Positions 10,084 to 63,474 of a stretch of 64,000 nucleotides of DNA are shown here, piece by piece. Every line of letters starts with the position of its first letter. The first letter of the stretch is position 1. The position numbers and the translations under genes were made by a program. Origin of the DNA: Eledone cirrhosa (taxonomy: Eukaryota); contig OZ024742.1 in NCBI GenBank assembly GCA_964016885.1, forward strand, positions 215,388,001 to 215,452,000, read 5' to 3'. The notes under the pieces were generated by a model. It had not been told where the DNA came from. It searched no databases and saw only the letters and a program-made list of their open reading frames with translations.

Positions 10084-10158
10084 TGATGTTTTTGTGTAAA
10101 TGGTAGCACAGTGTGGTCCGGATAACCAAAGATGTGGGTTCGACTCCCATGTACGTCA
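10084..10158 (+). other. tRNA-like cloverleaf (SINE head or tRNA pseudogene) inside an inverted repeat
   Basis: Acceptor tgatgt/acgtca, D arm gtgt/gcac, anticodon arm tggt-ccggata-acca, T arm gtggg-ttcgact-cccat with B-box GGTTCGACTCC. Confidence 0.6.
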
Positions 10159-12284: not shown

Positions 12285-14311
<2,027 letters not shown>

Positions 14312-21420: not shown

Positions 21421-21618
21421 ATAGATGAGATTCTACAGGACTAGAACTGTTTCATTCTTTAGAAATCATCAGGAATCTCAGAGATTCCTGATGATTTCTA
21501 AAGAATGAAACAGTTCTAGTCCTGTAGAATCTCATCTATATTAAAACGTTTATACTCTGCAATGTATTGAGTACCTTACTTACTGTGGTTACCTCCGATT
21601 CAACCCGGAATAACGTAC
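21421..21618. mobile_element. Mini element: perfect palindrome of two hammerheads plus 3' tail, within (TA)n
   Basis: 59 bp arms 21421-21479 and 21481-21539 with a 1 nt spacer. HHR gagattc-CTGATGA-tttctaaagaat-GAAAC ag..ct GTA^-gaatctc. Same family at 43668-43708, 60297-60530 and 63231-63385. Confidence 0.9.
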
Positions 21619-21690
21619 TATATATATATATATATAATAAAATAAAATAAAATAAATAAGTCGAATGTTTAAAATTTAGCTTCGTTTATT

Positions 21691-22344: not shown

Positions 22345-23246
22345 AACTCAAAATCAGACATTTAGTTTTTCTAACCGATCGCGCCAAATTTAGATTCAAA
22401 AATGGCTAAAATCGCTATGTAGCTGTGTACCAGCCAGAGAGAAAGCGTGTGATTGGTTGCTTACGGCGGGTAGGCTTGCTGCTAGAAAGCGCAGCCATAT
22501 ATCGCCAAATTTAATCTCAACCAATTGGGAGATTATTAAATATAAAGGTTATCACATACATAAAATTAAATTAAAGATATATATATGTTGCAACTGTTCA
22601 CTTTTAAGCTCAATGAAGAATTAATAAATTAAAATCAAAAATCAGAGCATTATATCATAAATTATGACTATAGAATCATCAGATATTAAAATATATACTA
22701 TTTCTTCTTCTAATTAGCATAATTAACCATATACAAAGTCAAATCTAGCAAGCTTTAAGAATAAATTTTCTTATGGGGAAATCTCTGACAAACAATTGAT
22801 CGAAGCCTCTTCGCGGCAGCCCCGTTCCATTATTTATCCAACATTTCGGCAGCATGCAGAATCCGACCAAATATACCATCAACCACACACAATTAGTAGT
22901 AAAATTAAACTAACTGGATAATTCATATTATTTGGATGTCCTAAATAAGGAAGAAACCATGGTAGAGATATAATTACGGTATGTGCACATTTCTTCTAAG
23001 TTTAATTTTACTACTAATTGTGTGTGGTTGATGGTATATTTGGTCGGATTCTGCATGCTGCCGAAATGTTGGATAAATAATGGAACGGGGCTGCCGCGAA
23101 GAGGCTACGATCAATTGTTTGTCAGAGATTTCCCCATAAGAAAATATATTCTTAAAGCTTGCTAGATTTGACTTTCTATATGGTTAATTATGCTAATTAG
23201 AAGAAGAAATAGTATATATTTTAATATCTGATGATTCTATAGACAT

Positions 23247-23421
23247 AATTGTTTCTACTTTAGGCACAAGGCCAGCAATTACCCAGTGCATTACTGGTAC
23301 TTTATTTTATCGACCCCGTAAGGATGAAAGGCAAAGTCAACCTCGGCGGGATTTGAACTCAGATCGTAAAGGGACGTAACTATGCTGGAAAGCATGGCGT
23401 CCGACCCTCTACCGATACTGC
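23247..23421 (-). mobile_element. tRNA-headed SINE
   Basis: Reverse complement of the 7537-7750 family. Confidence 0.88.
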
Positions 23422-32123: not shown

Positions 32124-35100
32124 TTGTCCATTATCCATATTACAATGGAAAATTCTTTAAAGAAAATACCGATACCTTCTAAGGACGAATTCTTACTTCG
32201 TATGATACAAAAAACCAACCAATTCATCAAAAGTTTCAGAAAGAGGGCCTACCACTTTGATAGAAAAACAAAACGTAATGATAAGAAATATTTATATGAT
32301 TTCACCACATATAAGAACCCACCACACAACCCCTTGCTTGAAAACTTCGAGAAAGACCTATCAAACACCTCAGATTTAAGAAATATAAATCTAATTTTCA
32401 AATCTACCCTATTGGATCTAAAAAAAATCTAGCAAAGTCCACGTCCACTCAGACAAAACTGGAAATTTACACCACATGAATATTGATAATTAGAATGAGG
32501 TCATTTATAAAGAACTCAGGAAAAATAATTAAAAAAAAAATAATGCGGCTCTTACCAATATCAACAACAAAACATACAACATAGTAAATAAACTCAATAT
32601 TGAAGACAGAACTGAATTTTGGCACTGAAAAAAACACACTTTAACCTGAAAGATCACGAATCTAACTTTAACTCTAATACTTCTATAAGACTTATTTATA
32701 TGCCCTTCCAAGTCAGATATTGGCATCATTAGTAAAAATAGTTTAGATAGAATCATCCCACAATTAAGAAAACACGTTATCTTACCACTCTGGGAAAACA
32801 CATCTGGTTTACTTATATTAGAAATAAATTATCTGCTTCATTTCTACAATTTGATATAGATGCTTATTATTCCTCTATATCACCCATACTCCTGAACAAA
32901 GCCTTGATATTTGCCAAAAATTGATCAAACTTAACTATGTATGACATTAATATTATCACGCACGCTAGACAAACACTCCTGGAGTTTCAGAAGGAATACT
33001 GGACTAGAAATACATATAGCAATGTCTTCGACATAACTATGTGCTCTAGTGATTCCGCCCAAATTACCGATCTTGTGGGCCTCTTTATTCTATTTTACAT
33101 TAATTCATCTTTTCCCCACCTTAAAGGTAGTTTATATCGTGATGACTGTCTTCTTCTTTCCACTAATCTTAGCCTATCAGAAATTGAACTTATTAGAACT
33201 TTCCTCAAAGACTATTAGAATCTCACTATTACATTTGAAAACACCAGTAAAATAGTTAATTTCCTAGATATAACTTTAGACCTATCTAGAGTATCTACCA
33301 ACCTTACCATAAATCTAACCAAAACTTACATTACATACACTCACAATCCAATCACCTTAGATCTATCCTTAAAAACCTATCATATAATATCTCACTCAGA
33401 ATCTCTAACCTTTGATCTAACCAGGATGTATTCGATAAAAATGCGCCCTTTTATAATGAAGCTTTAGCTATAAGGGGCCACAAAAACAAATTAGTCTATA
33501 TACCTTGCACCAATAATACTTCAAACATACAACCCAATATTACCAACAAACACCAAATGAAAAACCCACACCTAAATGCCACTCATACTACACCCCAAAA
33601 TACTAACCTAAAACTGAATTTCTCTACCGCTTCTCACATAAAATATAATAACTTTCAAAAAAACCATTCATCCTAATACTCCAATATATGTTAACAATAC
33701 TAACAAAATTCCTAGTAATCAGACTAAAACACCTAAATCAGTTAATCTAACTAAACCTATATATAATAAATTCACTAATAGTAACTCTCTTAGTAAACAT
33801 CCTGATACATCGTATACATATAAAAAACAATATCGAAACCGTAATAGACGGGTTACTTGGTATAATGCTCCATTTAATATACAAATTAAAGATAATATCC
33901 CTAAAAATGTTTTACTATCCTATAGAAAAACTTCCAACAAAACCATAAGTACCTTCAAATTTTAAATAGATCAACTGTCAAATGTTCTTACTCCACTCCC
34001 AAAAATATACAACAGAATATAAGTGCGTACAACGCATATAAATGTAAAACAAAACACACATATACCACCAACACATCAAACCAACTATAATACTAAAATA
34101 AACCGCAACAAACCATCATCTCCTTCACCTGTAACAAGTCGAGTAAATTCCACACCAAATTTGACTAACTCCTCTCATATAATATTCACGAATGGTTGTA
34201 ACTGTAGAATCAAAAGAAATTGCCCATTAAAGGGAAATTGTCTTATTAATAACATAGTCTATAAATGTAAAATTAGCACTAAGGACTCCACTTATTCATA
34301 TATAAAAGCTACGTCTAACCAATTTAAAGTAAGATTTAATACCCACAAACAAAGTTTTAAAAATGCCGCATTAGCTAATACAACATCCTTGGCTGAAACA
34401 ATTAATAATTATAGAAAGAAGAATATCGATTACAACATGACCTGGAGCGTGCTCAAAAGGGCCACCCCTTATCAAAATAACAGATACGAGTGTAGGTTAT
34501 GCCCCCAGGAACTTTTTGAAATCATGTAATCTAAGGATATCCTATTAAATAAGTGGCAGGAATTAATTATATCTTGCAATCATAGAATTAGAAGAACCTT
34601 TAAATATTATTAACCTAATTAATATACACCTTACTCCTATATTTTACATATTATTATAATTAGTTTTTTTTTTATTTAGTTAACCTATAATTAGTATTTT
34701 ACTACAGATAACTTCATAATTTTATTTCCCTCTTACAGCTCTCTTTTCCTAAAATTAATACCTAATAGTGTACCTATAAATTAATTTAATTTCTTGTTAT
34801 GAATCTATATTGCTTGTAGTTTATATAAGATTGGTATTTCTCACTACTACCCTTATCCCAAAATTTTACTTTCTTTCGTTTTTAACAACACACTTTAATA
34901 ACATCTAATTCTTATTTATCACATTCATATGAATTAATATAAATTTATCCCTATAAGTATACCTATTAATTAATTTAATTTCTTGTTATAGATCTAGATT
35001 CCTTATGGTTTAAATAAGATTGGTATTTCTCACTACTACCCTTACCCTAAAATTTTATTTTATTTCGTTTTTAACATTATTCTTTAATAACATCAAATGT

Positions 35101-41984: not shown

Positions 41985-42415
41985 GTAACTAAATCTCATT
42001 ATTGGTTATGTCAGAGTTGGTGCTGGCTAGGGTTAATGCTTTGTTGAGCAGTTCCGGGGTTATTGAAGCGTAGATTCCTTGGGCCTTGATCGGAGAACCA
42101 TCTAATGACTTGGCCGGTGTTGGACCACAGCTTGTAGGTGATATCATCCCGTAGCCCAGGGATGATCCTATCAAGGATGTTCTTACTGATACGACCCAAG
42201 TCGGATGTGGTTGGGCTTATAAGTCTAATAGAGGGGTTCTCTATAAAGTTTGGCTTGTGATCCTTGAGAGAAAACCTTGGGGTTGTAGGTATATAAGGGT
42301 GGGTAAATCTATCCAGATGCAAGTCCTTAACCAAAGCCTGGGCTTTGGTTAAGTAAGTTTACACTGGAGTGTATATTTTTTTTTATAGTTTTTATTAAGT
42401 TCCTTAGCCACTAAT
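41985..42415 (-). mobile_element. Penelope-like (Naiad-like) RT fragment
   Basis: LKDHKPNFIENPSIRLISPTTSDLGRISKNILDRII and YASITPELLNKAL, homologous to 32640-32930. Confidence 0.88.
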
Positions 42416-43583: not shown

Positions 43584-43623
<40 letters not shown>

Positions 43624-43708
43624 ATGTGTGTGTACTTATGTATCAATGTGTTTCCTATTGACTTTTTCAGGACTAGAACTGTTTCATTCATTTAAAATCA
43701 TCAGGAAT
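43497..43708 (-). mobile_element. Two short remnants of HHR-element families: 3' tail 43497-43587 and HHR core 43668-43708
   Basis: First matches the 25828 family tail. Second reads cctgatgattttaaatgaatgaaacagttctagtcctg on - and lacks the cleavage triplet. Confidence 0.7.
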
Positions 43709-49494: not shown

Positions 49495-49830
49495 CGTTTC
49501 TGAATTTGTTTAGCAAAATTATTTATCTGAAAACATGTGTTGAAATCGATATTGTTATAGTTTGGGAGGGTCATGTTGACAATAAGAAACACACGCACCA
49601 AGTGTTATACTCCAATTTATTATACATTAAATTTATAAATTTAAGAAATTTGTAAATTTCCGGTTGGTTGGTTGGTTCCACAACTAGACGGTTGTTCATA
49701 TATTGTCAAAGTTGTTTCGTCACACATTCTGTGACGTCTTCAGTGACTGGAGATCTCTTCTTTGTTTTGTGCCTCTCCTTTGTTCTGTCCTACGCCATCT
49801 TGCTTTTGTGAACACACACAAAAACAAGAT
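49495..49830 (-). mobile_element. HHR-containing pseudo-LTR-like element (HHR 49705-49747)
   Basis: gtca-CTGAAGA-c gtcaca gaatg tgtgac-GAAA caac TT^-tgac, with a helix III mismatch. Homologue at 54305-54675. Confidence 0.75.
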
Positions 49831-50499: not shown

Positions 50500-50980
50500 C
50501 ATGGAAAGTTATATTTAAAATTGTTGGGTTACAACTAGTAAATATTTATAACTGATATAAAAGCACTCGACAAATATTTGGAGTATATTTACAATGTTAA
50601 ATAAATGGAAACTATATTTATAAAACCATATTTATTTCATTATATATATTTCGGGGATATCATATTAACAATATGCTATGCCTTCCTCAGACAAAATACA
50701 ATATAAACAGTTTTATAGATAAATAGATTCGACATACCGTTATAACACCGACTTGCATTTGAAGAGGTTAAGCTGGCAGAAGAGGTTAAACTGCCAGCTT
50801 AACCTCTTCAAATGCAAGTCGGTGTTATAACGGTATGTCGAATCTATTTATCTATAAAACTGTTTATATTGTATTTTGTCTGAGGAAGGCATAGCATATT
50901 GTTAATATGATATCCCCGAAATATATATAATGAAATAAATATGGTTTTATAAATATAGTTTCCATTTATTTAACATTGTA
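50500..50980. mobile_element. Fold-back element with two hammerheads (50633-50698 -, 50872-50937 +)
   Basis: ~190 bp inverted arms centred near 50785. tattttgt-CTGAGGA-...-GAAA tatata TA^-atgaaata. (TA)n flanks. Confidence 0.88.
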
Positions 50981-50992
50981 TATATATATATA

Positions 50993-52772
50993 TTGGAATA
51001 AATGCTCTGAAATAGCGATATATATGTGAATATAGACATAGAATATTCGAAAATATTCTGTATGTTTATAATAAACATTTTGAAGACCTAATCGCTATAG
51101 AATAGAATACGTCACGTATTACAATTAGATTCTCGATAAAAGCAAGGGAAGTAATCTACGCGTTTCATTCTTGTTAGAAATCATCAGGACCACATATCCA
51201 GTGCTTTTATCGAGAATGACACAGCTAGAGACTTATAGAATACTTAGCTGTGTACAGGAACTGGTTTGACGTGACGTATTCTATTCTATAGCGATTAGGT
51301 CTTCAAAATGTTTATTATAAACATACAGAATATTTTCGAATATTCTATGTCTATATTCACATATATATCGCTATTTCAGAGCATTTATTCCAATTTCTAA
51401 TTTCTGCCGGACCGGCAACCGCTCTTTCAAACCAGTTCCTGTACACAGCTAAGTATTCTATAAGTCTCTAGCTGTGTCATTCTCGATAAAAGCACTGGAT
51501 ATGTGGTCCTGATGATTTCTAACAAGAATGAAACGCGTAGATTACTTCCCTTGCTTTTATCGAGAATCTAATTGTAATACGTGACGTATTCTATTCTATA
51601 GCGATTAGGTCTTCAAAATGTTTATTATAAACATACAGAATATTTTCGAATATTCTATGTCTATATTCACATATATATCGCTATTTCAGAGTATTAACAA
51701 GAATGAAACGCGTAGATTACTTCCCTTGCTTTTATCGAGAATCTAATTGTAATACGTGACGTATTCTATTCTATAGCGATTAGGTCTTCAAAATGTTTAT
51801 TATAAACATACAGAATATTTTCGAATATTCTATGTCTATATTCACATATATATCGCTATTTCAGAGCATTTATTCCAATTTCTAATTTCTGCCGGACCGG
51901 CAACCGCTCTTTCAAACCAGTTCCTGTACACAGCTAAGTATTCTATAAGTCTCTAGCTGTGTCATTCTCGATAAAAGCACTGGATATGTGGTCCTGATGA
52001 TTTCTAACAAGAATGAAACGCGTAGATTACTTCCCTTGCTTTTATCGAGAATCTAATTGTAATACGTGACGTATTCTATTCTATAGCGATTAGGTCTTCA
52101 AAATGTTTATTATAAACATACAGAATATTTTCGAATATTCTATGTCTATATTCACATATATATCGCTATTTCAGAGCATTTATTCCAATTTCTAATTTCT
52201 GCCGGACCGGCAACCGCTCTTTCAAACCAGTTCCTGTACACAGCTAAGTATTCTATAAGTCTCTAGCTGTGTCATTCTCGATAAAAGCACTGGATATGTG
52301 GTCCTGATGATTTCTAACAAGAATGAAACGCGTAGATTACTTCCCTTGCTTTTATCGAGAATCTAATTGTAATACGTGACGTATTCTATTCTATAGCGAT
52401 TAGGTCTTCAAAATGTTTATTATAAACATACAGAATATTTTCGAATATTCTATGTCTATATTCACATATATATCGCTATTTCAGAGCATTTATTCCAATT
52501 TCTAATTTCTGCCGGACCGGCAACCGCTCTTTCAAACCAGTTCCTGTACACAGCTAAGTATTCTATAAGTCTCTAGCTGTGTCATTCTCGATAAAAGCAC
52601 TGGATATGTGGTCCTGATGATTTCTAACAAGAATGAAACGCGTAGATTACTTCCCTTGCTTTTATCGAGAATCTAATTGTAATACGTGACGTATTCTATT
52701 CTATAGCGATTAGGTCTTCAAAATGTTTATTATAAACATACAGAATATTTTCGAATATTCTATGTCTATATT

Positions 52773-52775
<3 letters not shown>
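50993..52775. mobile_element. Second tandem array of the HHR monomer (310 bp variant): ~0.9 unit on -, then ~5 units on + including one internally deleted unit
   Basis: Period 310 (tttctgccgg at 51886, 52196, 52506). Strand switch near 51269. HHR cores at 51181(-) and 51509, 51994, 52304, 52614(+). (TA)n flanks. Confidence 0.93.
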
Positions 52776-52828
<53 letters not shown>

Positions 52829-53303: not shown

Positions 53304-54215
53304 TGTGTGCGTACGTGTGTGTGGGCGTGTGTGTGGGAGGGGGTTCAAATATGGGGCTAGATTCTCTATCAAGTTATAAATTGGGTATTGAGTTCTAGTC
53401 TATTATTGATTGGTGGTTGTGTTTTGTCTATAATTAGTGCTTCCTTAATTCTAAGATTGCCGTGGTTTCTTTCCTTAGTTTCTATCCTAACTATTATGGT
53501 TTTTTCGGTGTTTTTGCATTTAACTAGGTCTTTCTTAAATGAGGAGCGTTAGTATTGAGGTGTTCTTTTATTCTTATGTGGAGTGGTCTGGTGGTGCTAC
53601 CTACGTAGAAGTTGCTGCATTTGTCGCACTCTAGTCTGTATAGGACGTATGCCTGATAGCATAGGTCTGTGTCGTTGAGGGGCAGTTGGCTAGCCTGCAG
53701 CGGTTGTCATGTCTGGTGGAGTGTCTTTTGGTTAGCTGTCCGCGTAGAGAAGGACCTGAGTGGGCTAGTTGGATATCTAGTCCCTCTCGTCTGATAACTT
53801 TGCGGATGGCTGTTGTTGTTTCGTCACTGAAGTGTGGGAGCTTCAGGAAGCAAGTGTTAGCGCCTCGGGTGTGGTGTCCTCTGTTCTTTCTGGCACGGTT
53901 TGTGGTGGATGTCGTGTATCCGTTCAGTTTGAGTACTTCCAGGAAATATGTGGTGTGTTTGTCTCGGTCTCTAGCGTCGGTGCATTTGTTCCGGATACGT
54001 GTTAGGTCGTTCCTTATGTATCCGAACTTAGCGCCGGCTGGGAGGCCCGATCTGAAATGTACGAACAGGTCCCTGCTGGCGGCTTTTTTATAGAAGCAGG
54101 TGTGGATGTTGCCTTCCTCTGTTACCCTGAGCTGGAAGTCCAGTAGGGATAGGGATCCGCGGTCATCTGGGTGTTCCATGCTGAACTTTATACTGGCGTC
54201 CATGCTGGAGAATGT
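52829..54215 (-). mobile_element. 5'-truncated Penelope-like element (non-Naiad clade): RT thumb + GIY-YIG + 3' UTR
   Basis: IKFSMEHP...SLSLLDF...FYKK...FVHFRS (ORF 53631-54203), then after a frameshift VLYRLECDKCSNFYVGSTTRPLHIRIKEH and LRIKEALII. Ends at (TA)n. Confidence 0.9.
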
Positions 54216-54276
54216 TGTGTATATTTTAAAATATACACAACATTCTCAACATGTGAACTATAACTTCCCCCATATA

Positions 54277-59817: not shown

Positions 59818-60275
59818 AAAGTTCTATTTAACGTTGTTGGGATACAACAAGTAAATATTTTTATAACTGATATAAAGCACTCGACAAGTTTTTGGAGTAG
59901 ATATACGATATTAATAAATGGAAACTATATTTATAAAACCATATTTATTTCATTATACATATTTCAGGGATACCACATTAAATTATGGTATGCCTTCATC
60001 AAACGAAATACAATATATAACAGTTTTACAAATAGCTTTCACATACCCCTTTAAAATGCAACCATTACTTTTGAAGGCTGTCTGGCAGCCTCCAAAAGAC
60101 AGCCTCCAAAAGTAATGGTTGCATTTTAAAAGGGCATGTCAAAGCTATTTGTAAAACTGTTATATATTGTATTTTGTTTGATGAAGGCATACCATAATTT
60201 AATGTGGTATCCCTGAAATATGTATAATGAAATAAATATGGTTTTATAAATATAGTTTCCATTTATTAATATCGC
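59815..60275. mobile_element. Fold-back element with two C3U-variant hammerheads (59946-60010 -, 60170-60234 +)
   Basis: Inverted arms centred near 60090. tattttgt-TTGATGA-aggcatacca..tggtatccct-GAAA tatgta TA^-atgaaata. Confidence 0.85.
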
Positions 60276-60559
60276 ATATATATATATATATATATACGTT
60301 ATTCCGGGTTGAATCGGAGGTAACCACAGTAAGTAAGGTACTCAATACATAGCAGAGTATAACAGTTTTAATATAGATGAGATTCTACAGGACTAGAACT
60401 GTTTCATTCATTAGAAATCATCAGGAATCTGGGTATCAAAAAATAAATATGGTATTTATAGGTCTCTACAAGTGGTAGGAGAGGGTGGGGAGTGGGATGG
60501 GTGCAGGTCATGGGTGCAGGTCATTGGTTGTATCTACTTTTTCTGCCTGTAGAGGTGTC

Positions 60560-63230: not shown

Positions 63231-63295
63231 CAACCAATGACCTGCACCCATCCCACTCCCCACCCTCTCCTACCACTTGTAGAGACCTATAAATA
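63231..63295 (+). promoter_or_regulatory. Candidate Pol II promoter upstream of HHR (CCAAT 63234-63238, TATAAATA 63288-63295)
   Basis: TATA begins 30 nt before HHR stem I at 63318. Mirrored in the inverted arm. Motif match only. Confidence 0.4.
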
Positions 63296-63380
63296 CCATA
63301 TTTATTTTTTGATACCCAGATTCCTGATGATTTCTAATGAATGAAACAGTTCTAGTCCTGTAGAATCTCATCTATATTAA

Positions 63381-63474
<94 letters not shown>

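What the first reader, a model, noticed from the sequence alone, without database searches (positions are those of the whole stretch)
50993..52775. Second array shows structure-preserving changes in stem I and a skipped half-unit
Proximal stem I is gtaatc/ggttac in array 1 and gtggtc/gattac here. Three substitutions all keep pairing (AU to GU twice, UG to UA), and the helix II change falls in the loop (aata to aaca). Units are near-identical within an array but differ between arrays (310 versus 312 bp). One unit skips ~135 bp at ~51695, landing in the helix II loop. This supports independent insertions from distinct RNA templates under selection for the fold.
Basis: partly seen in the sequence, partly recalled or inferred. 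Interest (0 to 1): 0.8.

Follow-up and report, generated by a model that had tools for sequence, protein, structure and literature searches.

The report
Retrozyme stem changes record RNA editing
This array is one of well over a thousand recent insertions of a small non-coding repeat carrying a hammerhead ribozyme motif, and its pairing-preserving stem changes likely reflect RNA editing of the copied template plus selection for the fold, a DNA record suggesting that Penelope-type enzymes copy one RNA unit repeatedly from both sides of a break.

Summary
The observations are real; the inference needs reshaping. Array 2 is one insertion of a young non-LTR retrozyme family (about 18,500 units). Its three stem-I differences are one-sided A/G swaps opposite U, not covariation (1 two-sided pair in 31 haplotypes). 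They sample standing variation: the array-2 stem is a 4.6% minority allele, one A>G step from the majority, arising on five backgrounds and nearly always filling whole arrays. Array-wide A>G changes exceed T>C (15:6, against 23:44 among single-unit mutations) and cluster in the hammerhead stalk, which fits A-to-I editing of the template. Selection is still supported: array-wide changes at paired or core sites keep pairing 11:1, single-unit ones 10:44, and a sister family shows true covariation. The skip is a unique junction; similar jumps occur in 6 of 141 loci at scattered sites, so helix II is not special. The strongest signal is the insertion geometry: two inverted arms in (TA)n ending at two sites about 35 nt apart, one of each (58 of 58; 63 of 63), the Penelope tail. 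No RNA evidence, no partner element found. The scan reported this family and footprint before at other loci of this genome.

The parts
50979..50991 (.). left remnant of the (TA)n target
   Evidence: sequence
50992..51269 (-). left (inverted) arm, unit positions 165 back to 198 of the previous unit; outer end at start site b (position 165)
50992..51026 (-). about 35-nt 'tail' (unit positions 131-165) present at this end and absent from the other
   Evidence: compare PMC11167929, PMC8557442
51151..51193 (-). type I hammerhead motif in the left arm
51269..51270 (.). inversion joint between the two arms (about 1 nt overlap)
51270..51691 (+). inner part of the right arm (unit 41 to 310, then 1 to 152)
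51503..51545 (+). type I hammerhead motif
51692..51694 (+). skip junction: 3 extra bases joining unit position 152 to 291; unique in the assembly
51695..52783 (+). outer part of the right arm, 3.5 identical 310-nt units; outer end at start site a (position 131-139, merging with TA)
51988..52030 (+). type I hammerhead motif (stem I GTGGTC/GATTAC, core CUGAUGA..GAAA, palindromic stem III ACGCGU, predicted cut after 52024)
52298..52340 (+). type I hammerhead motif
52608..52650 (+). type I hammerhead motif
52776..52828 (.). right (TA)n target
12483..14251 (.). array 1: independent insertion of the 312-nt subfamily, left arm 12483-13359 (-, site b end), right arm 13357-14251 (+, site a end), in (TA)n

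Best explanation
Array 2 is one recent insertion of an abundant protein-free hammerhead repeat (non-LTR retrozyme) that was likely pasted into a (TA)n tract by a Penelope-like reverse transcriptase/endonuclease, and its stem-I G residues likely arose as A-to-I edits of the RNA template that the fold tolerates. Shown by sequence: two inverted arms, outer ends at two fixed sites about 35 nt apart with one of each per insertion, rare variants shared by all units of both arms, strand-biased recurrent A>G in the hammerhead stalk, and a deficit of pair-breaking array-wide variants. Inferred: both target ends prime reverse transcription on the same RNA molecule at sites a and b; each enzyme reads the unit repeatedly (most often round a 310-nt circle, sometimes along a multimer); the two cDNAs are joined at short microhomology; an edit made once on the template is thereby copied into every unit; templates with a broken stalk or core are rarely copied. 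The 135-nt skip is inferred to be a one-off stop and restart during cDNA synthesis or repair.
For: Family size: 5,255 exact core matches, control 0; 848 units with the array-2 stem allele and 17,608 with A at that site. End rule: 58 of 58 untruncated two-armed loci with both ends in the two windows have one of each (P 7e-18; 7 more of the 65 had one end elsewhere); in 67 loci picked by their b end, all 63 two-armed ones end at a on the other side. 96 of 131 inversion joints are blunt or overlap. 44 of 45 rare array-wide variants are in all arms that cover them. At position 276, 57 of 58 unbiased loci are all-A or all-G, whereas about 21-28 mixed loci are expected if units were independent. G276 occurs on 5 core backgrounds and A20G on 6. 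Array-wide A>G:T>C sites 15:6 (15:9 at worst) vs 23:44 for single-unit variants (P 0.005 to 0.03); 7 of 15 stalk As vs 8 of 78 others (P 0.002). Pair-keeping 11:1 vs 10:44 (P 3e-6); after removing A/G swaps, 1 break in 30 vs 44 in 241 (P 0.037). Sister family C keeps the same architecture and end sites with two-sided changes. Monomer folds better than 100 of 100 shuffles, z -4.4. Two adjacent RT start sites and AT-rich cleavage are shown in vitro for a PLE (PMC11167929).
Against: No RNA data: expression, self-cleavage, circles and editing are all unobserved. No autonomous partner found. Three loci (L044, L136, L153) carry unit-level variants in the same register in both arms, and several show periodic patterns, which a single monomer circle does not explain. 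One of the three stem-I differences (position 2) is probably G>A by outgroup, so not an edit. No significant ADAR neighbour preference (5' U 8 of 18, P 0.39). Variant lists and polarity were curated by hand and counts are small; the first 72 loci were chosen for likeness to the two window arrays. Array-wide variants may partly be inherited from homogeneous source arrays, and recombination between haplotypes could mimic recurrence. The antisense strand folds about as well (z -4.2).
Confidence: 0.68

Rival explanations
1. Same element and PLE mobilisation, but the template is an uncut linear multimer transcribed from a source array; no circle is needed, and array-wide variants are inherited from homogeneous source loci.
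For: In-register variants in both arms at L044, L136, L153; the stem III is a one-pair palindrome needing dimer pairing (PMC4209133 reports low activity for such motifs); ribozyme cleavage was dispensable for PAc insertion in vitro (PMC11167929); cDNA inner ends are not enriched at the cut site (9 vs 10.8 expected of 258).
Against: A new variant must pass through one unit to fill a whole array; many single-locus variants fill up to 22 units in both arms; editing-type alleles are all-or-none.
Confidence: 0.3
2. One reading: the stem-I changes are ordinary mutations retained by selection for pairing, with no editing involved.
For: Deficit of pair-breaking array-wide variants; A/G swaps cost at most 0.6 kcal/mol; transitions dominate anyway.
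Against: Selection removes variants but does not by itself raise A>G in the stalk above the rest of the unit, or favour A>G over T>C on one strand, or repeat the same change on 5-6 backgrounds.
Confidence: 0.25
3. DNA-level satellite: arrays amplify and homogenise by unequal crossing-over and gene conversion, with no RNA step for most units.
For: Block duplications and periodic variants inside long arrays (L062, L063, L051, L170) show some local expansion; proposed in 10.64898/2026.07.22.740005 (Discussion).
Against: Does not explain dispersal to over a thousand (TA)n sites, fixed a/b ends, inverted arms or strand-biased A>G.
Confidence: 0.07
4. The skip at 51692-51694 is an assembly error or a later DNA deletion rather than an event of insertion.
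Against: Five other loci of 141 have same-strand jumps with short extra bases or microhomology; the restart lies between the two start sites (2 of 6 do, P 0.08).
Confidence: 0.3

Closest known systems
Metazoan non-LTR retrozymes (Cervera and de la Pena 2020, PMC7229834, passages and parts 2-4 of 6 read; Li, Clavereau and Pollet 2026, 10.64898/2026.07.22.740005, parts 1-3 of 5 read; supplements not seen)
   Same: Tandem 310-312 nt low-GC units, one type I hammerhead each, no ORF; motif resembles the axolotl types (one-pair palindromic stem III; U-U at the base of helix II). Both papers propose PLE mobilisation; the first proposes circular templates and mentions RNA editing as a possible source of heterogeneity.
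   Different: In the parts read neither describes two-armed inverted insertions, paired a/b ends, (TA)n targeting or genomic A>G scars ('inverted' and 'microsatellite' occur 0 times in PMC7229834). Expression and circles are shown there and untested here.
Endonuclease-positive Penelope-like elements (PMC11167929 parts 1-2 of 4; PMC8557442, PMC3846280, PMC4209133 passages)
   Same: Inverted 5'-truncated copy, 30-40 bp tail at one end, two adjacent RT start sites, AT-rich or (TA)n targets, hammerhead in the pLTR.
   Different: No RT or GIY-YIG ORF; arms are multimers of one short unit; strict one-of-each use of the two start sites is not reported in the passages read (in vitro no strand difference in start site was seen).
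Non-autonomous Chlamys PLEs such as MRC1 (PMC8557442, passage)
   Same: Non-autonomous PLE derivatives with pLTRs and multicopy head-to-tail insertions.
   Different: Algal; the clade is said to lack canonical hammerheads; those share 3' sequence with autonomous families, whereas no partner was found here.

Membership tests
non-LTR retrozyme | type I hammerhead motif in each tandem unit | tested here: met
   (Rfam gathering scan gave no hit)
non-LTR retrozyme | short (150-450 nt) low-GC tandem units | tested here: met
   310/312 nt, 107 of 310 G+C
non-LTR retrozyme | no protein-coding capacity | tested here: met
   longest open stretch 59 codons in six frames of a trimer
non-LTR retrozyme | dispersed, recently mobile | tested here: met
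non-LTR retrozyme | self-cleavage in vitro | not testable with these tools
   needs transcription assay
non-LTR retrozyme | expressed as linear and circular monomer RNA | tested here: inconclusive
   no run on record as RNA was available
non-LTR retrozyme | target-site duplication longer than 4 bp when present | tested here: inconclusive
   ends merge with (TA)n
autonomous Penelope-like element | RT plus GIY-YIG ORF | tested here: not met
PLE-mobilised non-autonomous element | inverted 5'-truncated arm | tested here: met
PLE-mobilised non-autonomous element | 30-40 bp tail at one end only | tested here: met
   ends at 126-139 and 163-172, one of each
PLE-mobilised non-autonomous element | AT-rich microsatellite target | tested here: met
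   flanks printed
PLE-mobilised non-autonomous element | sequence shared with the pLTR of an autonomous PLE | tested here: inconclusive
   two young PLE-like families (60 loci) showed none; other families not searched
structure-selected RNA (covariation) | significant two-sided changes within the 310/312 family | tested here: not met
   1 of 31 pairs, 21 of 500 shuffles
structure-selected RNA (covariation) | two-sided changes in or against a diverged sister family | tested here: met
   family C: 3 of 32 pairs, 9 cells, 0 of 500 shuffles for cells (control ignores relatedness); by eye 4 two-sided changes in the extension stem and 2 in stem I between A and C
ADAR-edited template | strand-specific A>G excess in duplex | tested here: met
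ADAR-edited template | ADAR neighbour preference (5' G depleted) | tested here: inconclusive
   1 of 18 sites has 5' G vs 15 of 93 As; not significant
ADAR-edited template | A/G mixture in RNA but not DNA of one individual | not testable with these tools
   no RNA run

The most novel reading that the evidence does not exclude
A Penelope enzyme pair primes both ends of a (TA)n break on one 310-nt RNA circle at two sites 35 nt apart and rolls round it in two tracks, so that ADAR edits made once on the circle are stamped into every unit; editing is then a main source of heritable, fold-preserving variation in this retrozyme, and arrays that switch from A to G along the b arm (L051, L164) record editing that happened during reverse transcription.
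Probability: 0.4. Interest if true: 0.8.

Novelty: new variant of a known kind. Interest (0 to 1): 0.55.

Why it matters
Circular-RNA templates and PLE mobilisation of animal retrozymes are proposed in the papers read but not shown. A family with thousands of young insertions, a strict two-start-site rule and all-or-none editing-type marks turns both into testable predictions (which sites are edited, where priming occurs, whether a circle is the template). It also warns that 'pair-preserving' A-U to G-U changes in mobile RNAs can come from editing rather than selection.

Tried and rejected
Rfam scan: no hammerhead hit, only a tRNA-like match. Within-family covariation: not significant. Helix II as a jump or stop hotspot: inner cDNA ends there 3 vs 10 expected of 258; distribution round the unit not different from uniform (P 0.13); no excess at the cut site. 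Skip junction copied elsewhere: 1 match only. Nicked monomers joined by template jumps: 16 of 1,065 unit junctions have any private change within 6 nt, one an indel. Sequencing runs: no RNA holder listed; three runs hold a single 340-nt contig that goes back 310, which a DNA tandem array gives equally, so it is no evidence of a circle. Read support for the skip junction was not obtained. Partner search: two young PLE-like families share no sequence with the unit. Pfam gave nothing informative on PLE-like ORFs. ATG inside the core as a conserved ORF start: lost in the N7 variants. Dropped rows: locus L133 (parser error) from variant counts; C131T-type calls at the a end (TA boundary artefact); the L135 'jump' (duplicated segment); variants with fewer than 3 covering units. 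Literature searches for the two-armed footprint or editing scars in retrozymes listed nothing describing them; unseen supplements of PMC7229834 and of the 2026 preprint may bear on this.

Full report
Observation. All sequence statements hold. Numbering the unit from the predicted cut site (52025 = 1), stem I is 274-279 with 1-6, the core 280-286 and 301-303, helix II 288-299, stem III the palindrome 304-309. Beyond stem I lie a 3-bp and a perfect 16-bp extension (13-28 with 250-265). Array 2 consists of an inverted left arm (50992-51269), a right arm with a skip (position 152, 3 extra bases, position 291) and (TA)n on both sides.

Family. The window lies in a 3.0-Gb animal assembly; earlier scan notes call it octopus-like, which I did not test. 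An exact core pattern matches 5,255 times, control 0; stem-I patterns give 848 plus 17,608 units; a b-end pattern gives 781 forward-strand matches (reverse matches are partly double-counted), so about 1,500 insertions at least. I parsed 141 loci: 72 (mostly chosen for likeness to the window arrays), 67 consecutive b-end matches on contig C1, and the two window arrays; 5 were extended and 6 more fetched later.

Within and between arrays. In the unbiased 310-type sample (62 loci) units differ by 0.36 within and 3.4 between arrays. The array-2 unit is the modal unit of 16 of 132 loci with full units, but of only 1 of 69 unbiased ones. Array 1 belongs to an older 312-nt subfamily, with intermediates between the two.

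Are the stem changes covariation? No. On 31 distinct hammerhead haplotypes 99.8% of cells pair, but 9 pairs vary on one side only and 1 on both. All nine are A/G opposite U.

Is there selection? Using single-unit variants (mostly post-insertion) as a neutral control: at core or paired sites they keep pairing in 10 of 54; array-wide variants do so in 11 of 12 (P 3e-6). Leaving out A/G swaps, 1 of 30 array-wide variants breaks a pair against 44 of 241 (P 0.037). Array-wide changes in the ribozyme fall at the free core position N7, the U-U pair at the base of helix II, loop II, or a one-base bulge in stem I. A loose end led to an older 319-nt sister family (C) that shares unit positions 59-235 at about 75% and both end sites, but has a different hammerhead sequence in the same architecture; it shows two-sided changes internally and against family A (read by eye).

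Where do the G residues come from? The array-2 allele G276 is 4.6% of units, one step from the majority GTAGTC. It sits on five backgrounds defined by variants 8-19 nt away, and A20G on six. Array-wide A>G sites outnumber T>C 15:6 (15:9 if doubtful T>C are counted) against 23:44 in single-unit variants, and 7 of 15 stalk adenosines are hit against 8 of 78 elsewhere. Selection cannot raise a rate; A-to-I editing of duplex RNA followed by reverse transcription would (established knowledge; PMC5625713 passages report heavy editing in octopus and of a lizard Penelope element).

The skip. The junction occurs once in the assembly. Same-strand jumps occur in 6 of 141 loci, stopping at 3, 152, 81, 278, 111 and 291 and resuming at 281, 146, 71, 275, 13 and 152 in synthesis direction. 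No other lands in helix II, and arm inner ends are if anything rarer there. The restart at 152 lies between the two start sites, where a few other copies end on TA, so re-priming is plausible but weakly supported (P 0.08). It is a one-off accident; read support is lacking.

Insertion geometry. Outer ends cluster at positions 126-139 (a) and 163-172 (b). Of 65 untruncated two-armed loci in the first set, 58 have both ends in these windows and all 58 have one of each; in the b-selected set all 63 two-armed loci end at a on the other side and 4 are one-armed. This equals the 30-40 bp PLE tail (PMC8557442, PMC3846280), shown in vitro to be the interval between two RT start sites after AT-rich cleavage (PMC11167929). 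Inversion joints are blunt or overlap in 96 of 131; five use the element's own 16-bp inverted repeat.

Template form. Rare variants fill both arms in 44 of 45 cases and position 276 is all-or-none in 57 of 58 loci, which needs a single-unit bottleneck, most simply a circle. But L044, L136 and L153 carry unit-level variants in register in both arms, pointing to multimer templates in some cases, and long arrays show local duplication. Two loci switch from A to G along the b arm while the a arm is all G (L051 with L197, L164); template switching or local expansion could also give this.

Partner. Young open PLE-like ORFs of about 821 and 777 aa with RT and C-terminal GIY-YIG-like motifs (labels from my own knowledge; Pfam gave none) are abundant, but their 60 loci share no sequence with the unit.

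Novelty and verdict. The element class is known (PMC7229834) and its PLE origin proposed (10.64898/2026.07.22.740005). My searches listed no paper describing the two-armed footprint or editing scars in retrozymes; supplements were not seen. Earlier scan notes report the footprint for this family and editing marks for other families; the variant, selection and skip tests here are my own. Odds: PLE-mobilised retrozyme 0.9; constraint on the stalk 0.75; editing origin of G276 0.65; circle as usual template 0.55. Interest 0.55.

Noticed in passing
L103-L114, L182-L196 (family C); flanks of L067, L073, L102, L104, L154, L065: A set of older sister retrozyme families shares the a-b tail and end sites but carries different hammerheads, including a U3/A8-type core (UUGAUAA) with a 4-bp palindromic stem III in family C (1,342 first-look candidates).
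   Followed up: partly
window 21421-21636, 60277-60515, 63233-63383, 43584-43708: Short (TA)n-flanked elements with a hammerhead sharing the core and helix II start of this family but a 4-bp stem III; one is a head-to-head pair.
   Followed up: no
window 50584-50986 and 59898-60282; also 22660-23250: Palindromic inserts next to (TA)n, PLE-type layout; array 2 sits in the TA tract at the end of the first.
   Followed up: no
window 53631-54245 (-), 42011-42358 (-), 33642-34529 (+): Decayed ORF fragments that look like PLE RT or GIY-YIG parts (label from recall; Pfam no hit).
   Followed up: partly
window about 49700-49755 (-): Another hammerhead-like motif with a longer helix II; similar ones lie in flanks of L107 and L111.
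   Followed up: no
L153: Both arms carry two units of one haplotype outermost and another haplotype inward: a chimeric multimer template read in register.
   Followed up: partly
L115, L119, L145, L169, L174, L171, L179: Successful 311-nt haplotypes with one extra base in the 3' strand of stem I, forming a bulge.
   Followed up: partly
L135, L175: The only true compensatory change in the family: G-C to A-U in the 16-bp extension.
   Followed up: yes
L209-L237 and L238-L267: Two very young PLE-like families with many open ORFs (about 821 and 777 aa), candidates for active transposases.
   Followed up: partly
runs X3, X5, X6: Runs under three other organism codes each hold one near-identical unit as a single looped contig at low depth; kind of run unknown, so unexplained.
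   Followed up: no
window 10085-10158 (+): Weak tRNA-like match inside a palindromic repeat, probably a SINE head.
   Followed up: no
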